From: Mobula birostris
Lineage: Eukaryota
NCBI RefSeq assembly: GCF_030028105.1
Contig: NC_092377.1
Location: forward strand, 88,256,569-88,320,568
Direction of reading: 5' to 3'
DNA: 64,000 nt
Position 1 is the stretch's first letter; every line of letters starts with the position of its first letter. A program made the translations under genes and the position numbers. The notes beneath the pieces were generated by a model. The model worked only from the letters and a program-made list of their open reading frames with translations, had not been told where the DNA came from and made no database searches. Positions 2,886 to 47,970 of this stretch are shown here, in pieces.

Positions 2886-3550
2886 GATTAGATTAGATTA
2901 TGAGGACACTCAGTCCTCATTTATTGTCATTTAGAAATGCATGCATGCATTAAGAAATGATACAATGTTCCTCCAGAGTGATATCACAAAAAAAAGGACA
3001 AACCAAAGACTAACACTGACAAGACCACATAATTATAACATATAGTTACAGCAGTGCAAAGCAATACCATAATTTGATAAAGAACAGACCTTGGGCATGG
3101 TAAAAAAAAAGTCTCAAAGTCCCGAGTCCCTGATAGCAGGCAGCAAAGGGAGAAACTCCCTGCCATAAACCTCCAGGCACCGACAACTGCCAATACATTG
3201 GAAGCACCCGACCACAGCCGACTCTGAGTCCATCCAAAAACTTCGAGCCTCCCACCAGCCCCTCCAATACAGCCTCCTGAGCATCATCCTCTGCTGAGCG
3301 CTTTGACCCCGCCCCGCTGCCGAGCAACAAGCAAAGCCAAGGACTCGGGGCCTTCCCCTCCGGAGATTTCGGACCACACAGTAGCAGCGGCAGCAAAGAA
3401 GGCATTTCAAAGGTTTCTCCAGATGTTCCTCTGTGTTCTCACATCTGTCTCCATCAAATCAGGATTGTGCACGGCACCCTACTTGACAGATTACAGATAT
3501 CATTCACTGGAGTGGCCGCTGCACGCTGCGTTGCACCTCCATCTTCTCCT
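2886..3550 (-). mobile_element. Non-autonomous retroposon, Rex1/Babar-like ends
   Basis: Minus strand starts AGGAGAAGATGG and ends in a (TCTAA)n tail like the Rex1 copy ending at 8756; no RT coding. Confidence 0.55.
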
Positions 3551-3554
3551 CATA

Positions 3555-5620
3555 TTGCAAGATCACGACCAATGCATCTGCTATCTCTTCAGCAACCTCC
3601 TTCAGAGCTCTTGGATGTAGTTCATCTGGTCCAGGTGACTTAACATCTTTGTGTTTGCTTTGTACTTTCTTTGTAATAGCAATGACACTCACTCCTGCTC
3701 CCTGACACTCATGGACCTCTGGAACACTGCTAGTATATTCCACGGTGAAGACAGACGCAAAATTACATTAAGTTCATCTACCATTTCTTTGTCCCCCATT
3801 ACTACCTCACCAGCATCATTTTCCAGTGGTCCGATATCAACTCTCACCTCCCTTTTACTCTTTATATAACTGAAAAATCTTCTAGTATCCTGCTTTATAT
3901 TATTGTCTCATCTGCCCTCATATTTAATCTTTTCTTATGGCTTTTTAGTTGCCTTTTGTTGGATTTTAAAAGCTTCCCAATCATCCAACTTCCCACTCAC
4001 CTTTGCTACCTTATATGTCCTTTCCTTGGCTTTTATGCAGTCCTTAACTTCCCTTGTCAGCCATGGTTGCTGACCCCTGCCATTTGAGAACAACTTCTTC
4101 TGTGGGACATATCTATCCTATGCCTTGTGAACTATTCCCAGAAACTTCAGCTATCTCCGCTCTGCTGTCATCCCTGCCAATATCCTCCTCCAATCCACCT
4201 GGGCAAGCTCCTCTCTCATGCCTCTGTAATTCGGAATAAACCACTGCGATACTGATACATCTGACTTATGCTTCCCTCTCTCAAATTGCAGTATGAATTC
4301 AATCATATCATGATCACTGCATCCTAAGGGTTCATTTACATTAAGCTCCTTAAAAAAATATGGATATTTACACAACACCCAATCTAAGATAGCCTTTCTC
4401 CAAGTAGGCTCAAGCACAAGCTGCTCTCAAAAGCCATCTTGTAGGCATTTAACAAATTCCCTCTCTTGTGATCCAACACCAACCTGATTTTCCCAATCCC
4501 CTTGCATATTGAAGTCCCCCATTACAATTGTGTCATTACCCTTATTACATGGCCATTCCAGCTCCCTTTGCAATCTCAACCCCACATCTTGGCTACTATT
4601 TGGAGGCCTATATATGATCCCCATGATTTTTTTTTACCCTTGTAGTTTCTTAACTCCATCCACAGACTCCACATCTCTGACCCTATGTCAGCTCCTTCTA
4701 AAGATGTGATTCCATCACTTACCAACGGAGCCACACCACCACCTATCCTTCCTGCCTGTCCTTTCAATACAAAGTATATCCTTCGACGTTAGGCTCCCAA
4801 CTTTGACTTTCTTTCAGCCATGACGCAGTGATGCCTACAACGTCATACCGACCAATCTTTAATTGCGACATGAGTTTGTCCACCTTATTCTGAATGCTAC
4901 GCGTATTTAAATACAGCACCTTCAGTACTGCATTCTTCGCCCTTTTGAATGTTGCCTCTGTGGTACAAAGATTACTCTTTGCACTTTCTGCATTTGTACC
5001 CAATCATTGGCTTGTCCTTCATATTACACCCATCGTCTACTTCTCAGCCTGCTGACTCATCTTCAGCTCTATCATACTGGTACCCATCGCCCTGCCATAT
5101 AAGTTTAAACCACTCCCAACAGCTCTAGCAAACCTGCCCGCCAGGATATTGGTCCCCCTCAAGCGCAACCCGTCCTTTTTGTACAGGTCACACCTGCCCC
5201 AGAAGAGGTCCCAATAATCCAAAAAACGGAATCCCTGCCACCTGCTCCAATTCCTCGGCCACGCATTTATCCTCCACCTCATTCTATTCCTATCCTCACC
5301 GTCGCGTGGCACAGGTAGTAATCCCGAGATTACTACACTTTAAGGTCCTGCTTCTCAACTTCCTTCCTAACTACCTGTATTGTGTTTTCAAGACCTCCTC
5401 TCTTTAACAACTATGTCGTTGGTACCAATATGTACCACGACCTCTGGCTGCTCACCTTCCCTTTTCAGGATATCGCGGACTCTGGCACCTGGGAGGCAAA
5501 CTGCCAGCTGTGTTTCTTTTTCGCGTCCACGGACTCGCCTATCTGTCCCCCTAACTATAGAGTTCCCTGTCACTGCTGCCATCCTGTCCAGTTCCCTACC
5601 CTTATGAGCCACAGGGCAGA
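3555..5620 (-). mobile_element. CR1 LINE, disrupted (ORF1 SGNH-esterase-like, APE endonuclease, start of RT)
   Basis: ORF fragments GNSIVRG...VCLPGA...HIGTND (ORF1); YLNTRSI, IYRPPN, MGDFN, SDH (endonuclease); KSPGPDELHPRALKE. Confidence 0.9.
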
Positions 5621-11202: not shown

Positions 11203-11610
11203 CACTAGGGATTCTGCCGATGCTGGAAATCTTGAGCAACACACAAAATACTGGAGGCACTCAGCAAGTCAGGCAGCATCTATGGAGAGGAATAGTCAAT
11301 GTTTAGGGCTAGACCCTTAATCAGTCCTAATGAAGTTCCTCTCCATGGATGCTGACTGACCTGCTGTGTTTCTCCAGCATTTTGAGTGTATTGTTTGACA
11401 AAGAGGTTCTGTTTTTCCCTCCAATAAAGCTGACTGACTTGCTGAGTACCTCCAGCATTTTGCGTTCGTTGTTTAACAAAGAGTTTCTGTTTTTAGCAGA
11501 ACTGCCTTTTTCAACAGTCCTGCTAAAAGATAATTGTTCAGAAACATTATTTCTTTCTCTGTATTTGCTGACTGAACTGCTGGATATCTTCACCATGTTC
11601 TGATTTATTT
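11203..11610. mobile_element. Cluster of Penelope-like terminal repeats (inverted pair plus tandem copies)
   Basis: GATGCTGGAAATC...GGCAGCATC arm, its inverse, and 2-3 further CTGCTGAGT..TCCAGCATTTTG units. Confidence 0.6.
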
Positions 11611-11779
11611 TTTAATCATAATGATAAGTTGTGTTTACACAGTGACTTTAAAGTAGCGAGACATTCTAAAGCTTTTCAGAAAGCGTTGCTAAGCAATATT
11701 TATCAATGGCAAGTACTCAGTGAAACAAGTTTATAATGTGTTTGGGTTCTTCAGTGTAGAAGAGGCCACAAAAGGTTGC

Positions 11780-11990
11780 CTTGGAGACAGATGTTCTGTA
11801 AACCAAGTGCCTTGACTATGTTTGCTTTCTCCAGTGTAGATGGAGGCCACATGGTGAACATTGAGTACAGTCTGCAGACTCTTGAATGGACTTCTTGTAT
11901 GACAATAGATAAACTCTTGATCTGCCACCCTACCTCATTTGTAACCCTAGCACTCCACTTGTTCTGTAACCGCAACATTCTATTCCGGTC
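11780..11990 (-). mobile_element. Penelope-like GIY-YIG endonuclease relic
   Basis: IYTGESKHSQGTWFTEHL resembles the PLE motif YIGETKRRLGDRFAEHL. Confidence 0.55.
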
Positions 11991-12249
11991 CAAACTCATA
12001 CATTGTCTTCCTTTTATATTTCCTTGTATTTTACGTTGTTTATCTTGTGAATGTCATATATGTTAATTTATGTGCCTTTTGATGCTGCAGCAAGTAAGTT
12101 TTTCATGGAACTTTCGCACGCATACTTGTGCCAATGACAATAAACATGAGTTTGTCCATTTCCCTCCATAAATGCTGCCTGACCCGCTGAATTCCTCCAG
12201 CATCTTGTGTGGTTGCAGTCGATTCTGCATTCTGTTTTCTTTTTACTGC

Positions 12250-12668: not shown

Positions 12669-12789
12669 ATATGGATCGCAAAACATGTTCTTTTTCTCTG
12701 TATCTCAATACCTGTGACAATAATGAACCAGAAGCAATACCGAATGTTTCAGCTGGAATGACTGTTTGGGTCCCTGGTTGGAGGGGAAG

Positions 12790-13500
12790 AGCCACTGGGA
12801 CATCTTCCGGGAAGCGAACAAAATCGATAGCCCGCTCTCCGAGCCCCCGCGGAACTCGACCTGTCCACCAATGGGCATCGCGGGTAGGATTACGTCACGC
12901 TACCGCCTCTCCGGCGCCGCAGAGGTCACATGATCACCCAGCCTATCCCACGTGACACGTCCTTCCTCCGCTCGGTGCATTCTGGTTATTCGGTGTGTCC
13001 TTGTGGCGACATGAGCGGCCTGGCAGTACGCGGCCTGCGGGTAAGGAGGGAGGGGAGCCCGCGGCTCGGCCGCAGACGGGAAGGGGTGCGGGGAACTTCG
13101 GAGGAGGAGCAACGGGGTCCAGCAAGGAATCGTGGGGGGGGGGGGTGGAAAGGTCAGTCGGAAGACCTTGACGAGGTGGGGAGCTGGGGCGAAGGCATTG
13201 GTGTGGAAGGTGGGCCAAGGCTGCTGGTATGTGTGTTTGGGGGGTAGATTACCAGCTATAGCCGCAGTATGTGTTTCCTAATATCAATATCCGGAGACAG
13301 GCTGGGACCCCAGACCACCATGTCCAGCCAGAAATTATCGATGGCCTTGCGCTCTGGTACGGCTATCCTAAATTATCTCACTCCTCAGCTTTTTTTTTGT
13401 AAACTTCGGCTTGCTAATTTTCTCCCTGTTTGCCTTTAGCCAATAACCTTCCCGGAAGTCGAATTAGCTTTTATGGCGTCGAGTTGTGGATTCACTTGTA
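12790..13500 (+). promoter_or_regulatory. CpG-island promoter of COX7A
   Basis: CCAAT (~12868), CRE-like TTACGTCA (~12890), AGGTCACATGA (~12923), E-box CACGTGAC (~12949), ETS/GABP-like CCGGAAGT (~13453). Confidence 0.75.
13011..13040 (+). CDS. COX7A1: Cytochrome c oxidase subunit 7A, exon 1 (MSGLAVRGLR, transit peptide)
   Basis: ATG in GCGACATGA context within the CpG island; phase-0 donor CGG|GTAAGG; in frame with exon 2. Confidence 0.8.
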
Positions 13501-13737
13501 TTTTACTTTTAATGTTGCCTCTTATTTCGCTCGTGACTTAATCTGAATTCTAGAGGCAGACCCATTTGCCACAAGAAATGGTTTCTTCATTTTGTCACTC
13601 ACTTGAATAGTCTTATCAAGTTTCTTTCACTTGAGGAGAACAATTCTCACTTATCTAGCCTTCTTGAGGTGCAGCCCTGGTGTGTTTGATAAATCTCACT
13701 ACATCTGGTCCAGGGCGTATGATGTGATGCTAATAGC

Positions 13738-14312
13738 TCAGAATCAGGTTTAATATCACTGGCATATTTTGAGAAATTTGTTGTTTTGTGGCAGCAGTGC
13801 ATTGTAATATAAAATCACAATAAAAATATAGTTTTTAAATAAGTAGTGCAAAAAGAGAGCAAAAAATCGAATTAGTCCATTCAGACATCTGATGGCAGAG
13901 GGGAAGAAGCTGTTCCTAAAGCATTGGGTGTGAGTCTTCAGACTCCTGTACCTCTGATAGCAAAGAGAAGAGGGCATGTCCTCGGTGATGGAGGTCCTTA
14001 ATTATGGATGCTGTCTTTTTTGACATTGCCTTTTGAAGATATCCTCTACCCATGATGGAGTTGGAGCTGGCTGACTTCACAACTTTCTGCAGCTTTTTCC
14101 AATCACGCACACCCATTCCCTCATAGCAGAGGGTGCTGCAACCAATTGGAAAGCTCTCCCCAGAATATCTGTCGAAATTTGCGTCAGTCTGTGGTGCCAT
14201 ACTAAGTCTCCTCAAACTTCTGAGGAAATAGAGCTGCTGGCCTGCCGCCTTTGTAGTTGCATCAACGTGTTGGGCCCAGGATAGATCCTCAGATTTGTTG
14301 ACACGCAGGAAT
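13738..14312 (-). mobile_element. Rex1/Babar LINE 3' end
   Basis: SEDLSWAQH...LYFLRSLRRL...HALFSLL; FRNSFFPSAIR; 3' UTR motif. Confidence 0.85.
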
Positions 14313-14679
14313 TTTCTGGTAAATAGTAAATTGATGGTGTTTATGATTTCCCTCGACAGAAGCTTACCACAAATGATCAATCCTGTCTATGGGTTGGCTC
14401 TTTTCGATATCACCTATAACCGTCATGTTCCCAAACTGTTTCAGCCGGGAGCAGTTAAGTTGAAATGTTCTGGCACAGTAAATAGAAAGAATAATGTTTA
14501 AATATATCTTGTTTGCAATAGATTAGGGCGTGGCCATGTAGCTTTTAAGATAAAAACTAAAACGTAATTAAACGTGTATTTAATATGCATAGCAATTTTG
14601 AAGTACACTTACTGGTCAAATGAGACCCCATAGATTTAAAACTCATTTTAGAGCATTGGAGCAGCATGATATGACCCTT

Positions 14680-14871
14680 ACAACAGGAATTCTGCAGATG
14701 CTGGAAATTCAAGCAACACACATCAAAGTTGCTGGTGAACGCAGCAGGCCAGGCAGCATCTCTAGGAAGAGGTACAGTCGACGTTTCAGGCCGAGACCCT
14801 TCGTCAGGACTAACTGAAGGAAGAGTTAGTAAGAAAATCTGCCCGGCCTGCTGCGTTCACCAGCAACTTTG
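14680..14871. mobile_element. Short palindromic Penelope-derived insertion with 14-bp TSD
   Basis: TSD ATGATATGACCCTT at 14666-14679 and 14872-14885; inverted arms ATCAAAGTTGCTGGTGAACGCAGCAGGCC. Confidence 0.85.
14776..14811 (-). ncRNA. Minimal type I hammerhead ribozyme motif
   Basis: Minus strand AGTC-CTGACGA-AGGGTCTCGGCCT-GAAAC-GTC^GACT: intact CUGANGA and GAAA boxes, stems I and II, GUC triplet, loop-less palindromic stem III. Confidence 0.75.
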
Positions 14872-16441
14872 ATGATATGACCCTTTGAGTCTTGCTGGAC
14901 AAAGTGTAGTGTTTTTTTTAATGACTGGAATTATTCACTAGAAGAGCAAGATATCACTGAAACTAGTTGGTGAACTTTTGTTTCCATTGTGATGTGCAGG
15001 CTCCAGAGTTTTGTTTTCAGTTTTCAGGCTCATTGTGAGCATTGAGTTTTACCATTTTTACAGTTGGAGTCCAGGCCAGTTCTCCTGTGGGGGTGGAGAC
15101 AGTGGCTTATCAAAATCCATTACTTCCTCGTTACTTTATGCTTGTTTGACATTTTAACTTGTAATGCTATATGCTGTAGTGGTGCCTTCGTTCTTGCACC
15201 TCATTTTATGTTCACTATTTAGTTTCTATATTTTTTAAAAAAACTAAAGCTTGCTGAGCTTTGAATTTTCCCTGGTTTGTCTGCTGAGTTTGTAAGTCTT
15301 TCGTTTTCTCCTTGCCTTTTACTGCATTCATTGTATTGAAATACTGATATGCACAATACAATACCTACATGAGATGGAGCAAAAACCTTATAATAGAAGC
15401 ATATGACTTTATAAAAAAAATGGCTGGATGTTTAGTTTTGAATAGATGGTGGTATTATTGGGCATGTTGTGTGGATGACCTTTCTCAGTGTAGACTTGTT
15501 GGGATGAATGGCCTCCAATGTCACATGAGAAAAATGTAAGATAAAGGACAAACTCTCTTGGCTGAGAATCACTCCATAATTCCACCCTAAATACGCTTGC
15601 TACAGTCTCATTTGCCCTTTCTAATATCCTATGTACAAAGTACACTAATTACTTAAGAACAATATCTGACCTTTGCAACCTTTGCTATCGCAAAAGGAAA
15701 GAGCAGCAGGTATATGGAATGGCACCATCCTGACTTGCAAGTTTATCACAATTGCTGAGTTTAAATATGAGAACACAATGCAGCAGAAGCAAGCCATCCA
15801 GTCCCTCAAGTCTGCCTCAGCATTAACAGTCCTGTGCCAGTTGCCCATAACCTCAGTTCTGATCTTGCAGAACTTTATTTACTGCCTCAAGTCTTTGAGG
15901 GAGAGAATTCCAGAGATTCACCACCTTTTGTGAAAAACTCTTTGAGTGCAGCAATTTTAAATTGCTCTTTTTTTCTTGTAACTATGACCCCATGTTTGAA
16001 AGTTTGTGGGGTGGGGAGCTGTTTGGTATTTTTGGTACAGTTTCTATCCTCAGGCACATGGGCTGCACTTTTGTGTAACTTGCTGACCTCCCTCTGATCC
16101 CTTATTTGCCTGTTCTGCAATACACTGCTTCCACTTCTCAACAGAGGCATGGAACACCCTCATCGTACTAGGGAGATCAGGTTTCATAATGATTTTGCTT
16201 CCCTTGCTGGATGTTTCCATCTCCACCAACTCCCAATAGTAAGCTAGTAGGTGTCTTTCAAAGGGTGTGTGTCATTCAGCTGCGTCAGGCAGGATGGGGG
16301 ACCAAAACCCTGGGGGAGTATTCACCTCCATTCTGCGATAAACCCCATACAGCAGTGTTCTGATGTTCGGATGGATACCTGTAGCTCAAAGAACAATCCA
16401 CATAAACGAGGACATGGGCAGGGCCTGAGCCTCTGTTTCCT

Positions 16442-17156
16442 TGTGGAAGTCGAATCCAGATAAAGTCACCCAGAGACCGTATAAGTACAAACTCTTTATT
16501 CCAAGCACCTGGGGCTTACTCAGTTAGTTGTTCAAACAGGAACAGTCTATGATTGTCTATGACTGTTCCTGCCCAATCCACGAACTAACTTAACAATCCC
16601 CCTCATAACACAGATATATTTGCCTAGATACCCCCCACACAAGACAGGCTGGAGCCAAAGTTATTTACTACATGACAACCCCGAAAGACAAATTACAAAA
16701 TAGTCATAATGGCTTACACACACAGAACAGACTGAAGCTGTCTTATCTCTACATATGACTACATGAGGAGATAAGCATCTTAAAGGCTCTAGCTGACTAC
16801 CTTCAAAAGGAAATAGTGCTCTAACAAAATTCGCACATCTGTTGGTCATCAAGGTTTCTCACAGGAAAAAAAAGAGAAAAAAAAGCAGGCTGCTATGTTT
16901 AATGAAGGCTGGCTGTTGGTGTAGTGGCATCAGCGCCGGACTTTGGAGTGAAGGCTCCCGTGTTCGAATCCAGCCGGCTCCCTTGCACACTTTCCATCCG
17001 TGCTGGGTTGAGGGTTGAGCGTCGAGCTAGCAACTCAGCCTCGTAAAAATAAGAAAATGCCGTCATGACGGTGTCCCGATGACTCCACTCGGAGTTAAGG
17101 GCTTTCTTCTCTTCTTCATGTTTAATGACTGTGTTAACCTTTTACATACTTTATTA
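16442..17156 (-). mobile_element. Probable solo LTR inserted in the ERV pol
   Basis: 4-bp TSD TCCT (16438-16441, 17157-17160); removing it restores the pol frame AFEAAEETEAQALP; minus-strand AATAAA ~55 nt before a CCACA end; the other end is TA rather than TG. Confidence 0.6.
16906..17117 (+). mobile_element. tRNA-derived SINE with (TTC)n tail
   Basis: A box TGGTGTAGTGG, B box GTTCGAATCC; 11-bp TSD ATGTTTAATGA at 16895-16905 and 17118-17128. Confidence 0.85.
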
Positions 17157-18671
17157 TCCTCAGCAGCCTCGAATGCCTGTTGTTGCTCTGGACGCCACTC
17201 AAAAGTTGCTTTTTTCCTCGTTACTTTATGTGAGGGTCATAACAGAATGATTAGGTGTGGTATGTGCTGTCTCCAGGAGCCCAAAAGCCCCATGAACCTT
17301 TGGGTCCCTTGCTTATTGTTGGGGGCGGTCATTTCAGTTGTCTTGTTCCATACTTGGTCTGGGATTCCTTGATGTCCCGAGACCCACTGGATACCCAGAA
17401 ACGGGACTGTCTGGCCTGGCCACTTTATTTTCTATGAATTCATCACCCATGTAGCTTACCAGCATGTCCAGGGCTTCTGTTACCCCTTCCTAGGTGGATC
17501 CTCTTAGCATGATGTCATCGATATGTATACTACCTGTGTATCAGGCGAGAGAGTACATGCATCGAGGGCTTGCGGTATCAGTCCATGACACAGGGCTGTG
17601 CACATACCTGTGAAGCAGTCTGGTAAAAGTGTACTGCCTGCCTTCCCAAGTAAAGACAAATTGGTCCTGTGAATCTGACGGGGGAAGGTTGACCAGCTCT
17701 ATTACAGCATACCAGTCCCTGTCTCCCTGTGACACTGTCACTATGCAGCAGTTAATGGAAGGACAAACTTATTTAACTGAGGATATTCAACTGTCATCCT
17801 CCAGCTGTTGTCTGATTTCTTCACTGGCCAGAAAGGACTGTCATACTGAGGTTACATGCCTGATCCATCTTGTTTTAACAGTTCTTATGGTGTCTGTGAC
17901 ATCTGTATGTGTTAGCACTGTTTCACACAATCCATGACACTCAGAGGTGGTATTAGAAGAGGCTCCCACTTCTCTAGTTGCTATTAATATGACAAATGGG
18001 AACTACCCCAATCTAGTCGGCACTGTCTGTCTCTAGAAATGCATTTCAGTGGTATTTTCAGATAACGCGATTGGCTATCAGTACTTGGGCTTCCTTTGGC
18101 CAACCGTCCTCAATAGCCAATCGGACTGTCATTTCCCATGTTTTATTGTATTTCCTCCTAAATCCTCCTGAAGCACCTGAGGTCCCTGATGTTGGTCAGG
18201 GTTTCCAGGTATGTTCAGTACCTGTGACCAGCCCTCCGCTGGACTCGCAAGGCATTTTTAATGCTTCCCAAAATGCCATTTACCTTCGCAACCATACCGC
18301 AGCCGTTGGCCAACTTTTTGTGATTTATGCATAGTAACATCTAAATCCTTCTGTACCTGTTTGCAAAATCTTGCCATTATAAAATTGTTCACCTTTGGAT
18401 TTCTCTTACTGAAGTGCGTGACATCGCACTTGCCCACATTAACCTCAATTTGGCAGGGTTTTGCAAACTCAGCCGACCGATCTATATCCAGTTCTCAGAT
18501 CCAAATAGCATTGTTGCTGTATGCCCTCCTGCCTATTTTTGTATTGCTGCTGAACCTTCATAGTTCGTACTCCACTCACTCCTGGGTCGTTAAAGCAGGT
18601 AGTAAATAATTGGGGGACTGGAAGTCACCCTTGAGGCTCTTTGTACTTAAATGTTTGTTGTTTTTCCTCAG

Positions 18672-29880: not shown

Positions 29881-30044
29881 CGAGGAATTTTGCAGATGCT
29901 GGAAATTGAAGCTACACACATCAATGTTGCTGGTGAACGCAGCAGGCCAGGCAGCATCTCTAGGAAGGGTCTCGGCCTGAAGCAACGACTGTACCTCTTC
30001 CCAGAGATGCTGCCTGGCCTGCTGCGTTCACCAGCAACATTGAT
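29881..30044. mobile_element. Short palindromic Penelope-derived insertion with 14-bp TSD
   Basis: Perfect 42-bp inverted arms 29920-29961 / 30003-30044; TSD ATGAGTGGG(T/C)TCCA at 29867-29880 and 30045-30058; partial hammerhead remnant in the loop. Confidence 0.85.
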
Positions 30045-30265
30045 ATGAGTGGGCTCCAACTAAGACTGGTGGTTAGGTCTCAATAATTTGTATTAATTAT
30101 TTGGATAAAATAAATGCATGTAGTCAATTTTGCTGAAGATACAAAAATAAATGGAAAGCAGGTTGTGAGGCCAACAATATCTGGAAGGAGACATACAGTG
30201 AGCTAATACAAAGCCAAGTACTCTTATTTCTGTTTCCCAACCACCTTCCTATTGTAACCAATATG

Positions 30266-30332
30266 CAGTACTGTGCAAAAGTCTTAGGCACATATATATA
30301 GCTAGGGGGCCTGAGACTTTTCCACAGTACTG
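30266..30332. mobile_element. Tiny Tc1/mariner-type MITE (second, decayed copy at ~30440-30503)
   Basis: TIRs CAGTACTGTGCAAAAGTCTTAGGC / GCCTGAGACTTTTCCACAGTACTG; TA at the right flank. Confidence 0.7.
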
Positions 30333-30569
30333 TATATCGGTCACAATAGGAAGGTGGTTGGGAAACAGAAATGAGAGTACTTGGCTTTGTATTAGCTCAG
30401 TGGTATGATGTGTTACTTGGTAACTGGAAAGACATAATATACTGTGCAAAAGTCTTAGGCACCATAGCTATGTGTAGATGTCTAAGATTTTTGTTCAGTG
30501 CTGCAGGTAGATTATGTTAGTGAGCAAGAAAATGCTTGTTAATGAGTTTATCCGCCTTAGTAGAAAGAA

Positions 30570-47504: not shown

Positions 47505-47970
47505 TACTTACTTACTGCTTGTTACATTGCAGATGTTTAGGGCTGCAATGAGGGTCTTCCATCTCTGCTGGTTTTCAAGGCTTCCTTCACCATGTCAGTA
47601 GCTTCCTCTTGGATTTCACTCATGCCGCTCCCAGGTAGAGACTCAGATGGGTAAAATAAGATTGTGACTGAAACAGCAATGAAGAATTCTTCTACATCAT
47701 TACATTTGGATGTAGAAGAATTCTTCATTGCTATTTCCCTAACAATCTTGTTTTACCGGTCAGAGTTTTTAACCTTGAGCTGAAGCCCCGAACCTGAAGT
47801 ACCTGTGGACCACTCTTAGTCCGGCCTCTACCCTTTGACCTGTTTGCCATGGGTGACCCAACCAAGACAGCCAAAGCATAAGGCCCAAACTCCAGCCAGC
47901 ACAACTCTCTGGATCATCGAGGCACGCAAACCTCCAAACCACGACAAGGTTGTGGTCCCCTTGGAGGAAT
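47505..47970 (-). mobile_element. RTE-related non-autonomous retroposon
   Basis: (TAAG)n tail at the left end; RTE-type 5' segment; family assignment is tentative. Confidence 0.5.

What the first reader, a model, noticed from the sequence alone, without database searches (positions are those of the whole stretch)
14666..14885. Miniature palindromic Penelope-derived insertion carrying an intact minimal hammerhead ribozyme
Seen: a 192-bp insert with a 14-bp TSD and inverted arms, containing on the minus strand AGUC-CUGACGA-AGGGUCUCGGCCU-GAAAC-GUC^GACU. Established: Penelope-like elements carry minimal type I hammerheads whose palindromic, loop-less stem III suits dimeric cleavage. Decayed copies occur at ~7630, 11008, 11300, 25530, 29965 and 54762, and a GIY-YIG relic at ~11800. 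Inference: the most abundant short repeat here is a ribozyme-bearing PLE end, possibly a non-autonomous family. This copy is antisense to the COX7A pre-mRNA, so it would not cut it.
Basis: partly seen in the sequence, partly recalled or inferred. Interest (0 to 1): 0.7.

Follow-up and report, generated by a model that had tools for sequence, protein, structure and literature searches.

The report
Penelope jumping-gene stump with hammerhead
This 192-base hairpin-shaped insert is a cut-short, head-to-head end of a very abundant Penelope-type jumping gene, likely in a ray, and the small self-cutting RNA motif it carries is the kind already known from such elements and is predicted to be folded shut in this copy, so the find is ordinary.

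Summary
Observation confirmed: exact 14-bp target-site duplication, 43-nt inverted arms, and a complete minimal type I hammerhead motif on the minus strand (cut predicted after 14780), antisense in intron 1 of a COX7A2-like gene. The insert is not a family unit. Bases 14836-14680 are the 3' pseudo-LTR end plus tail of a young RT/GIY-YIG Penelope-like element (Neptune/Nematis type). A near full-length copy exists, and the 34-nt core occurs exactly 22,090 times. The other 35 bases are a locus-specific inverted piece. Of 81 sampled sister insertions, 36 have such a piece, and all 27 classifiable ones carry the tail on one end only. This is the published PLE footprint, and the motif is the published min-HHR. 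'Intact' needs a caveat: pair 10.1-11.1 is G-U rather than G-C, and upstream pLTR sequence is predicted to mask stems I and II. Cleavage is untested. Copies pile up at the motif's front edge, rarely at the cut. Two nearby pairs of insertions share fold-back junctions, which is unexplained. The scan noted this kind before, in this and other genomes. New member of a known kind; low interest.

The parts
14666..14679 (.). Left copy of the 14-bp target-site duplication
   Evidence: sister insertions show 10-18-bp TSDs in 45 of 73, against 0 of 73 controls
14680..14836 (-). 5'-truncated 3' end of the PLE pseudo-LTR, sense copy, positions -56 to +100 from the predicted cut nucleotide
   Evidence: 92-100% identical to 39 other loci, most over query 36-192; contiguous with the GIY-YIG/RT ORF in longer copies
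14680..14707 (-). Tail (about +73 to +100), present on this end only
   Evidence: continues the 5' pLTR towards the ORF in L089; bimodal ends
14776..14811 (-). Minimal type I hammerhead motif: stem I 4 bp, core CUGACGA, bulged A, stem II 4 bp with two G-U pairs, GAAA, palindromic ACGU, cut predicted between 14780 and 14779
   Evidence: majority motif in random copies
14812..14836 (-). Upstream pLTR pyrimidine tract and hairpin predicted to mask stems I and II
   Evidence: stem I probability 0.005 with it and 0.60 without; 7 of 200 shuffles of the tract mask as strongly
14837..14871 (+). Inverted, 5'-truncated second copy of the pLTR end (about +59 to +24, short end, no ribozyme); its outer 3 bases overlap the TSD by microhomology
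14872..14885 (.). Right copy of the target-site duplication
13041..18656 (+). Host intron 1 of a COX7A2-like gene, boundaries approximate
   Evidence: exon 1 read by eye

Best explanation
The insert is a 5'-truncated end of a young, very abundant endonuclease-bearing Penelope-like retrotransposon with a second, inverted, shorter end joined head-to-head, likely built at this site by the element's own RT/GIY-YIG protein, and its hammerhead motif is the element's pLTR ribozyme, predicted to be folded shut in this copy. Shown: homology to the pLTR of a near full-length element, TSD, one long and one short end, locus-specific junction. Inferred: the endonuclease nicks both target strands about 14 nt apart. 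Each nick primes reverse transcription inside the element's RNA, one at the distal start (~+100, giving the tail) and one at the proximal start (~+60). Both cDNAs stop early and join through a few bases of microhomology. The ribozyme would act, if at all, at the 5' end of the parent's transcript, which likely starts at the motif's first base (-31), probably with help from the protein. Here it is a passenger, antisense to the host gene.
For: Longer sister copies run upstream into GIY-YIG (Pfam PF01541, 22.9 and 22.7 bits, cut-off 22.6), a CxxxxCxxC linker, and an RT with YIDD and DKG motifs (RVT_1 E 9e-6 but below the cut-off). L089 has a 5' pLTR with the motif, a 1017-codon frame with 4 internal stops and a 3' pLTR. 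Its closest named relatives are ray proteins at 75-93% identity. The core occurs exactly 22,090 times, control 0. In 81 sister insertions, sense lengths run from -30 to -1837; 36 have an abutting inverted piece; 27 of 27 with both ends classifiable pair one long with one short end (14 + 13); TSDs of 10 nt or more occur in 45 of 73 against 0 of 73 controls, mode 13-14. This layout is described in Craig 2021 and Arkhipova 2013, and two internal RT starts bounding the tail were shown in vitro for an anole PLE. 5' ends fall at -38 to -30 in 22 of 84 copies, against 11 over -85 to -39. In random DNA only 2 of 73 hits start near the cut.
Against: Nine of 36 inverted pieces could not be classed as long or short. 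Two pairs of insertions 390 and 605 kb apart share one fold-back junction but have different flanks, so whole fold-backs may sometimes be copied or converted. Arkhipova 2013 proposes self-priming on an antisense template rather than two-nick priming, and my data do not separate the two. The sample had to contain -30 to +3, which truncates the distribution. The start site at -31 is inferred only from copy ends and an initiator-like YYANWYY (consensus recalled). No intact ORF was seen among the 20 long copies examined.
Confidence: 0.88

Rival explanations
1. The 192-bp palindrome is the unit of a non-autonomous family (MITE-, SINE- or retrozyme-like) that is transcribed, cut by its hammerhead and re-inserted whole by PLE proteins.
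For: 17 of 81 sampled insertions are fold-backs of 300 bp or less. L002 and L036 have junctions near this one. Two pairs of long fold-backs share junctions at different sites. Animal retrozymes are described as non-autonomous PLE derivatives.
Against: This junction occurs whole only here among 40 scored of 147 candidates. The nearby junctions differ in sequence and lie at a short microhomology. Retrozymes are head-to-tail tandems with a hammerhead in each unit; this insert has one motif and no tandem. The junction-sharing pairs share 0 and 1 rare variants, against a background of 197 of 6407 pairs sharing one.
Confidence: 0.07
2. The hammerhead in this lineage is an inactive relic; transposition does not need it.
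For: The U11.1 core outnumbers the canonical C11.1 core 22,090 to 5,158, although G10.1-C11.1 is described as highly conserved. The double-hammerhead secondary structure scores -9.5 kcal/mol, against -28.3 for the best cofold and -10.0 per monomer, with tertiary contacts not modelled. HHR mutants did not affect insertion in vitro for the anole element. Few copies start at the cut.
Against: Young and old lineages differ in majority base at 3 of 36 motif positions (N7, 11.1, and C17 by CpG decay) against 9 of the next 24, alignment-dependent. RNA starting at -31 is predicted to form both stems (probability 0.56-0.97). The anole motif does cut with protein present. Four arms start at +1 to +5, a weak hint.
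Confidence: 0.3
3. This copy acts on the host gene, through a double-stranded hairpin in COX7A2 pre-mRNA or a self-cutting antisense transcript.
For: The plus strand folds at -94.5 kcal/mol, z -9.3. Contigs of a related organism run 22-27 nt into the element at the left junction and 22 nt at the right, so the insertion is likely shared.
Against: Such hairpins are a common product (36 of 81 insertions carry inverted arms). It lies deep in the intron, about 1.6 kb from exon 1 and 3.8 kb from exon 2. The motif is antisense and predicted masked.
Confidence: 0.03

Closest known systems
Minimal hammerheads (min-HHR) in pLTRs of metazoan PLEs, including fish Neptune (Cervera and De la Pena 2014, PMC4209133; parts 1-2 of 4 read: abstract, results, discussion; supplements not seen)
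   Same: Type I; core CUGANGA/GAAA/UH; no helix III; palindromic 15.2-16.2; unpaired base before stem II; helix I of 4-5 bp; thousands of single dispersed copies; sits in both pLTRs.
   Different: Helix II is 4 bp with G10.1-U11.1 rather than the conserved G-C. Sharks and rays are not named in the parts read; the unseen supplement may list them.
Insertion units of EN+ PLEs, Neptune/Nematis type (Craig et al. 2021, 10.1101/2021.04.23.441226, passages; Arkhipova et al. 2013, PMC3846280, passages)
   Same: Heavy 5' truncation, adjacent inverted 5'-truncated copy, 30-40-bp tail on one end, TSD, C-terminal GIY-YIG, CX2-5CxxC linker.
   Different: TSDs are longer here (mode 13-14, against 8-10 in the rotifer cases) and copy number is very high. 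Neptune versus Nematis was not resolved by a tree.
PAc, Poseidon element of the green anole (Frangieh et al. 2024, PMC11167929; main text and part of the methods read)
   Same: Two RT start sites bounding the tail; hammerhead near the pLTR-ORF junction; uncut RNA appears to be the main template.
   Different: PAc's ORF starts inside the hammerhead; here the first ATG lies about 135 nt after the cut. Different clade.
Non-LTR retrozymes (Li et al. 2026, 10.64898/2026.07.22.740005; parts 1-2 of 5 read)
   Same: Short, non-coding, type I hammerhead, PLE pLTR origin.
   Different: Retrozymes are head-to-tail tandems with a motif in each unit; this is one motif in a head-to-head unit with a TSD.

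Membership tests
min-HHR of metazoan PLEs | Catalytic core C3-A9, G12-A14, A15.1-U16.1, H17 | tested here: met
   majority base in 15 young and 40 old random copies
min-HHR of metazoan PLEs | Helix I of 4-5 bp and a pairable helix II | tested here: met
   4 Watson-Crick pairs in stem I; 4 pairs (2 G-U) in stem II
min-HHR of metazoan PLEs | Palindromic 15.2-16.2 without loop 3; bulged base between 9 and 10.1 | tested here: met
   ACGU; bulged A in 143 of 145 motif hits
min-HHR of metazoan PLEs | Conserved G10.1-C11.1 pair (typical, not part of the descriptor) | tested here: not met
   G-U here; 22,090 U against 5,158 C exact cores
min-HHR of metazoan PLEs | Located in the pLTRs of a PLE | tested here: met
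   both pLTRs of L089
min-HHR of metazoan PLEs | Self-cleavage as a dimer or with protein | not testable with these tools
   bench assay needed; folding only
EN+ Penelope-like element (parent) | Single ORF with RT and C-terminal GIY-YIG | tested here: met
   both domains in one open frame in L081; GIY-YIG above cut-off; RVT_1 below cut-off
EN+ Penelope-like element (parent) | pLTRs, inverted truncated copy, tail on one end, TSD | tested here: met
Neptune/Nematis clades | CX2-5CxxC linker between RT and EN | tested here: met
   criterion
Neptune clade | RT phylogeny with reference Neptune elements | not tested
Non-LTR retrozyme | Head-to-tail tandem with a hammerhead in each unit | tested here: not met
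   single motif, inverted arrangement
Non-autonomous family with a fixed unit | Many copies with the same ends and internal junction | tested here: not met
   (40 of 147 candidates scored)

The most novel reading that the evidence does not exclude
The pLTR works as a position switch. In RNA that starts at the motif's first base the hammerhead folds, while the 25 bases upstream mask it in the 3' pLTR and in read-through RNA, so only the 5' end of the element's own transcript can be cut. In addition, whole fold-back units are sometimes re-inserted nearby, which would make them a nascent non-autonomous form.
Probability: 0.2. Interest if true: 0.6.

Novelty: new member of a known kind. Interest (0 to 1): 0.2.

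Why it matters
This copy itself matters little. The family is useful because the role of PLE hammerheads is still open, and tens of thousands of young insertions give a natural record of where reverse transcription starts and stops, how long the TSD is, and whether cut RNA is ever the template. The strict one-tail rule and the pile-up at the motif's front edge put numbers on a known pattern.

Tried and rejected
Rfam: no hammerhead model hit. The generic core pattern is not above chance. A genome search with the 3' part alone returned nothing because common words are skipped, so an unbiased set of 5' ends came only from 36 random 10-kb stretches and from flanks. The Pfam COX7a family gave no hit in the genome or on single exons; PDB sequence search identified the gene. 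tblastn found no GIY-YIG relic at 11800. An extra G from a cap at the start site cannot be told apart, because base -30 is itself G. Scars at the cut site, claimed in earlier notes: 4 of 242 arms start at +1 to +5, one exactly at +1, in a biased sample, so inconclusive. Stem covariation between lineages: too few intact old copies (0 of 40 with core and stems). No RNA holder listed; runs were contigs only and cannot show starts or cuts. Depletion of sense copies in introns was not testable without annotation. Paper searches for this family in sharks and rays found no dedicated study, but Repbase and Dfam were not available, so this is not evidence of novelty. Two papers checked for the effect of G10.1-C11.1 (passages) gave no rate for G-U; that it slows cleavage is recalled.

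Full report
Observation. The 192 bases between two identical 14-mers (14666-14679, 14872-14885) carry 43-nt inverted arms at 91% and fold far better than shuffles on both strands. The minus strand holds the motif as quoted, with the cut predicted between 14780 and 14779. The bare core pattern is not rare and Rfam has no hit, so the case rests on the full anatomy and on the family. The six decayed copies are among 18 window hits, and this repeat tops the window's repeat coverage. The GIY-YIG relic near 11800 is weak (E 0.23). The host gene is COX7A2-like on plus, so the motif is antisense in intron 1.

What it is part of. A genome search matched mainly query positions 36-192 at 97-100% (40 of 202 candidates scored); the first 35 bases match only as an inverted echo. 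Sister copies extend upstream into a GIY-YIG domain, a CxxxxCxxC linker and an RT. L089 shows the whole plan: a 5' pLTR with the motif, running through the tail into a 1017-codon frame with four internal stops, and a 3' pLTR that ends without the tail. None of the 20 long copies examined had an intact frame. The closest named proteins are from rays, so the host is likely a ray. The 34-nt core occurs exactly 22,090 times. Related ends gave 73 hits in 360 kb of random DNA, which extrapolates to roughly 800,000 arms; this is a rough figure from 36 stretches on 9 contigs.

How the palindrome arises. I mapped 84 exact-core sites from the start of contig C1, out of the 100 places listed. One unmapped site and two mirror duplicates were dropped, leaving 81 insertions. 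Their 3' ends are bimodal: 42 long, 34 short, 5 other. An inverted piece abuts the 5' end in 36. In all 27 with both ends classifiable, one end is long and the other short; 9 could not be classed. TSDs of 10-18 nt occur in 45 of 73 (8 ran off the locus), against 0 of 73 mismatched controls. The window copy is sense -56 to +100 plus inverted +59 to +24, an ordinary case. Its junction is found whole only here (40 of 147 scored); two near neighbours have other junctions at the same short microhomology. This is the published footprint of endonuclease-bearing PLEs, and the two ends match the two internal RT starts shown for the anole element. Priming from both target nicks is my inference; self-priming on an antisense template is the published alternative.

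The ribozyme. It meets the min-HHR description of Cervera and De la Pena except for G10.1-C11.1, which is G-U here and in the larger lineage (22,090 against 5,158). Young and old lineages keep the motif better than the next 24 bases (3 of 36 against 9 of 24 majority differences), a modest sign of past constraint. Of random copies aligned, 5 of 15 young and 0 of 40 old keep core and stems. RNA starting at -31 is predicted to form stems I and II. Adding the upstream 25 bases, as in this copy, drops stem I to 0.005 and stem II to about 0.05; 7 and 19 of 200 shuffled tracts mask stems I and II as strongly. The double-hammerhead fold is not favoured in a nearest-neighbour model. Published min-HHRs did not cut as monomers and cut weakly as dimers; the anole one needs protein and is dispensable for insertion in vitro. 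5' ends pile up at -38 to -30 (22 of 84; sample forced to include -30), and only 2 of 73 random hits start near the cut. Four of 242 arms start at +1 to +5, which neither confirms nor excludes the cleavage scars reported in earlier notes.

Age and host effect. Contigs from a related organism enter the element by 22-27 bases at the orthologous junctions, below the tool's 31-base bridging rule, so a shared insertion is likely but not shown. Nothing points to a host function.

Results against the reading. Two pairs of long fold-backs, 390 and 605 kb apart on C1, share a junction yet have different flanks, and L053/L060 have different TSDs. For L053/L060 no other sharer appeared (40 of 676 scored); for L106/L110 a few looser matches did (40 of 1820 scored). 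They share 0 and 1 rare variants. Local re-copying or gene conversion of whole units is possible, but it does not involve the window's unit.

Verdict. A real feature, correctly read as Penelope-derived with a min-HHR, but not a family of its own and not shown to cut. Earlier notes of this scan reached the same kind of reading in this and other genomes. Supplements of the papers were not seen and may name elasmobranch motifs.

Noticed in passing
L053/L060 (G000:C1:3954204 and 4345088) and L106/L110 (C1:7858819 and 8463032): Two pairs of nearby fold-back insertions share the same inversion junction at different sites; no microhomology was found for the first pair. Possible local re-copying or gene conversion.
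   Followed up: partly
window 29883-30050: A second young fold-back insertion, long end on the left and short end on the right, joined at about +11/-22, so its hammerhead core is incomplete.
   Followed up: partly
window 11213-12224: Cluster of older pLTR ends on both strands around the weak GIY-YIG relic; probably one or more old insertions with inverted ends.
   Followed up: partly
window 12745-12787 (minus): Short relic of the PLE linker/EN region (nhmmer E 0.01) about 230 bp upstream of the COX7A2-like start codon.
   Followed up: no
window 14811-14817 (minus) and older lineages: The sequence before the motif looks both like an initiator and like a 3' splice site (pyrimidine tract plus AG); in D. 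virilis an intron ends at helix I. Splicing could also explain the pile-up of copy ends.
   Followed up: no
window 30204-30395 and 47656-47752: Other long hairpins that gave sub-threshold microRNA matches in Rfam; probably unrelated inverted repeats.
   Followed up: no
L088, oriented positions 3224-5023: A 600-codon open frame that looks like a hAT/GTF2IRD2-type transposase (recalled, not tested) next to a PLE copy.
   Followed up: no
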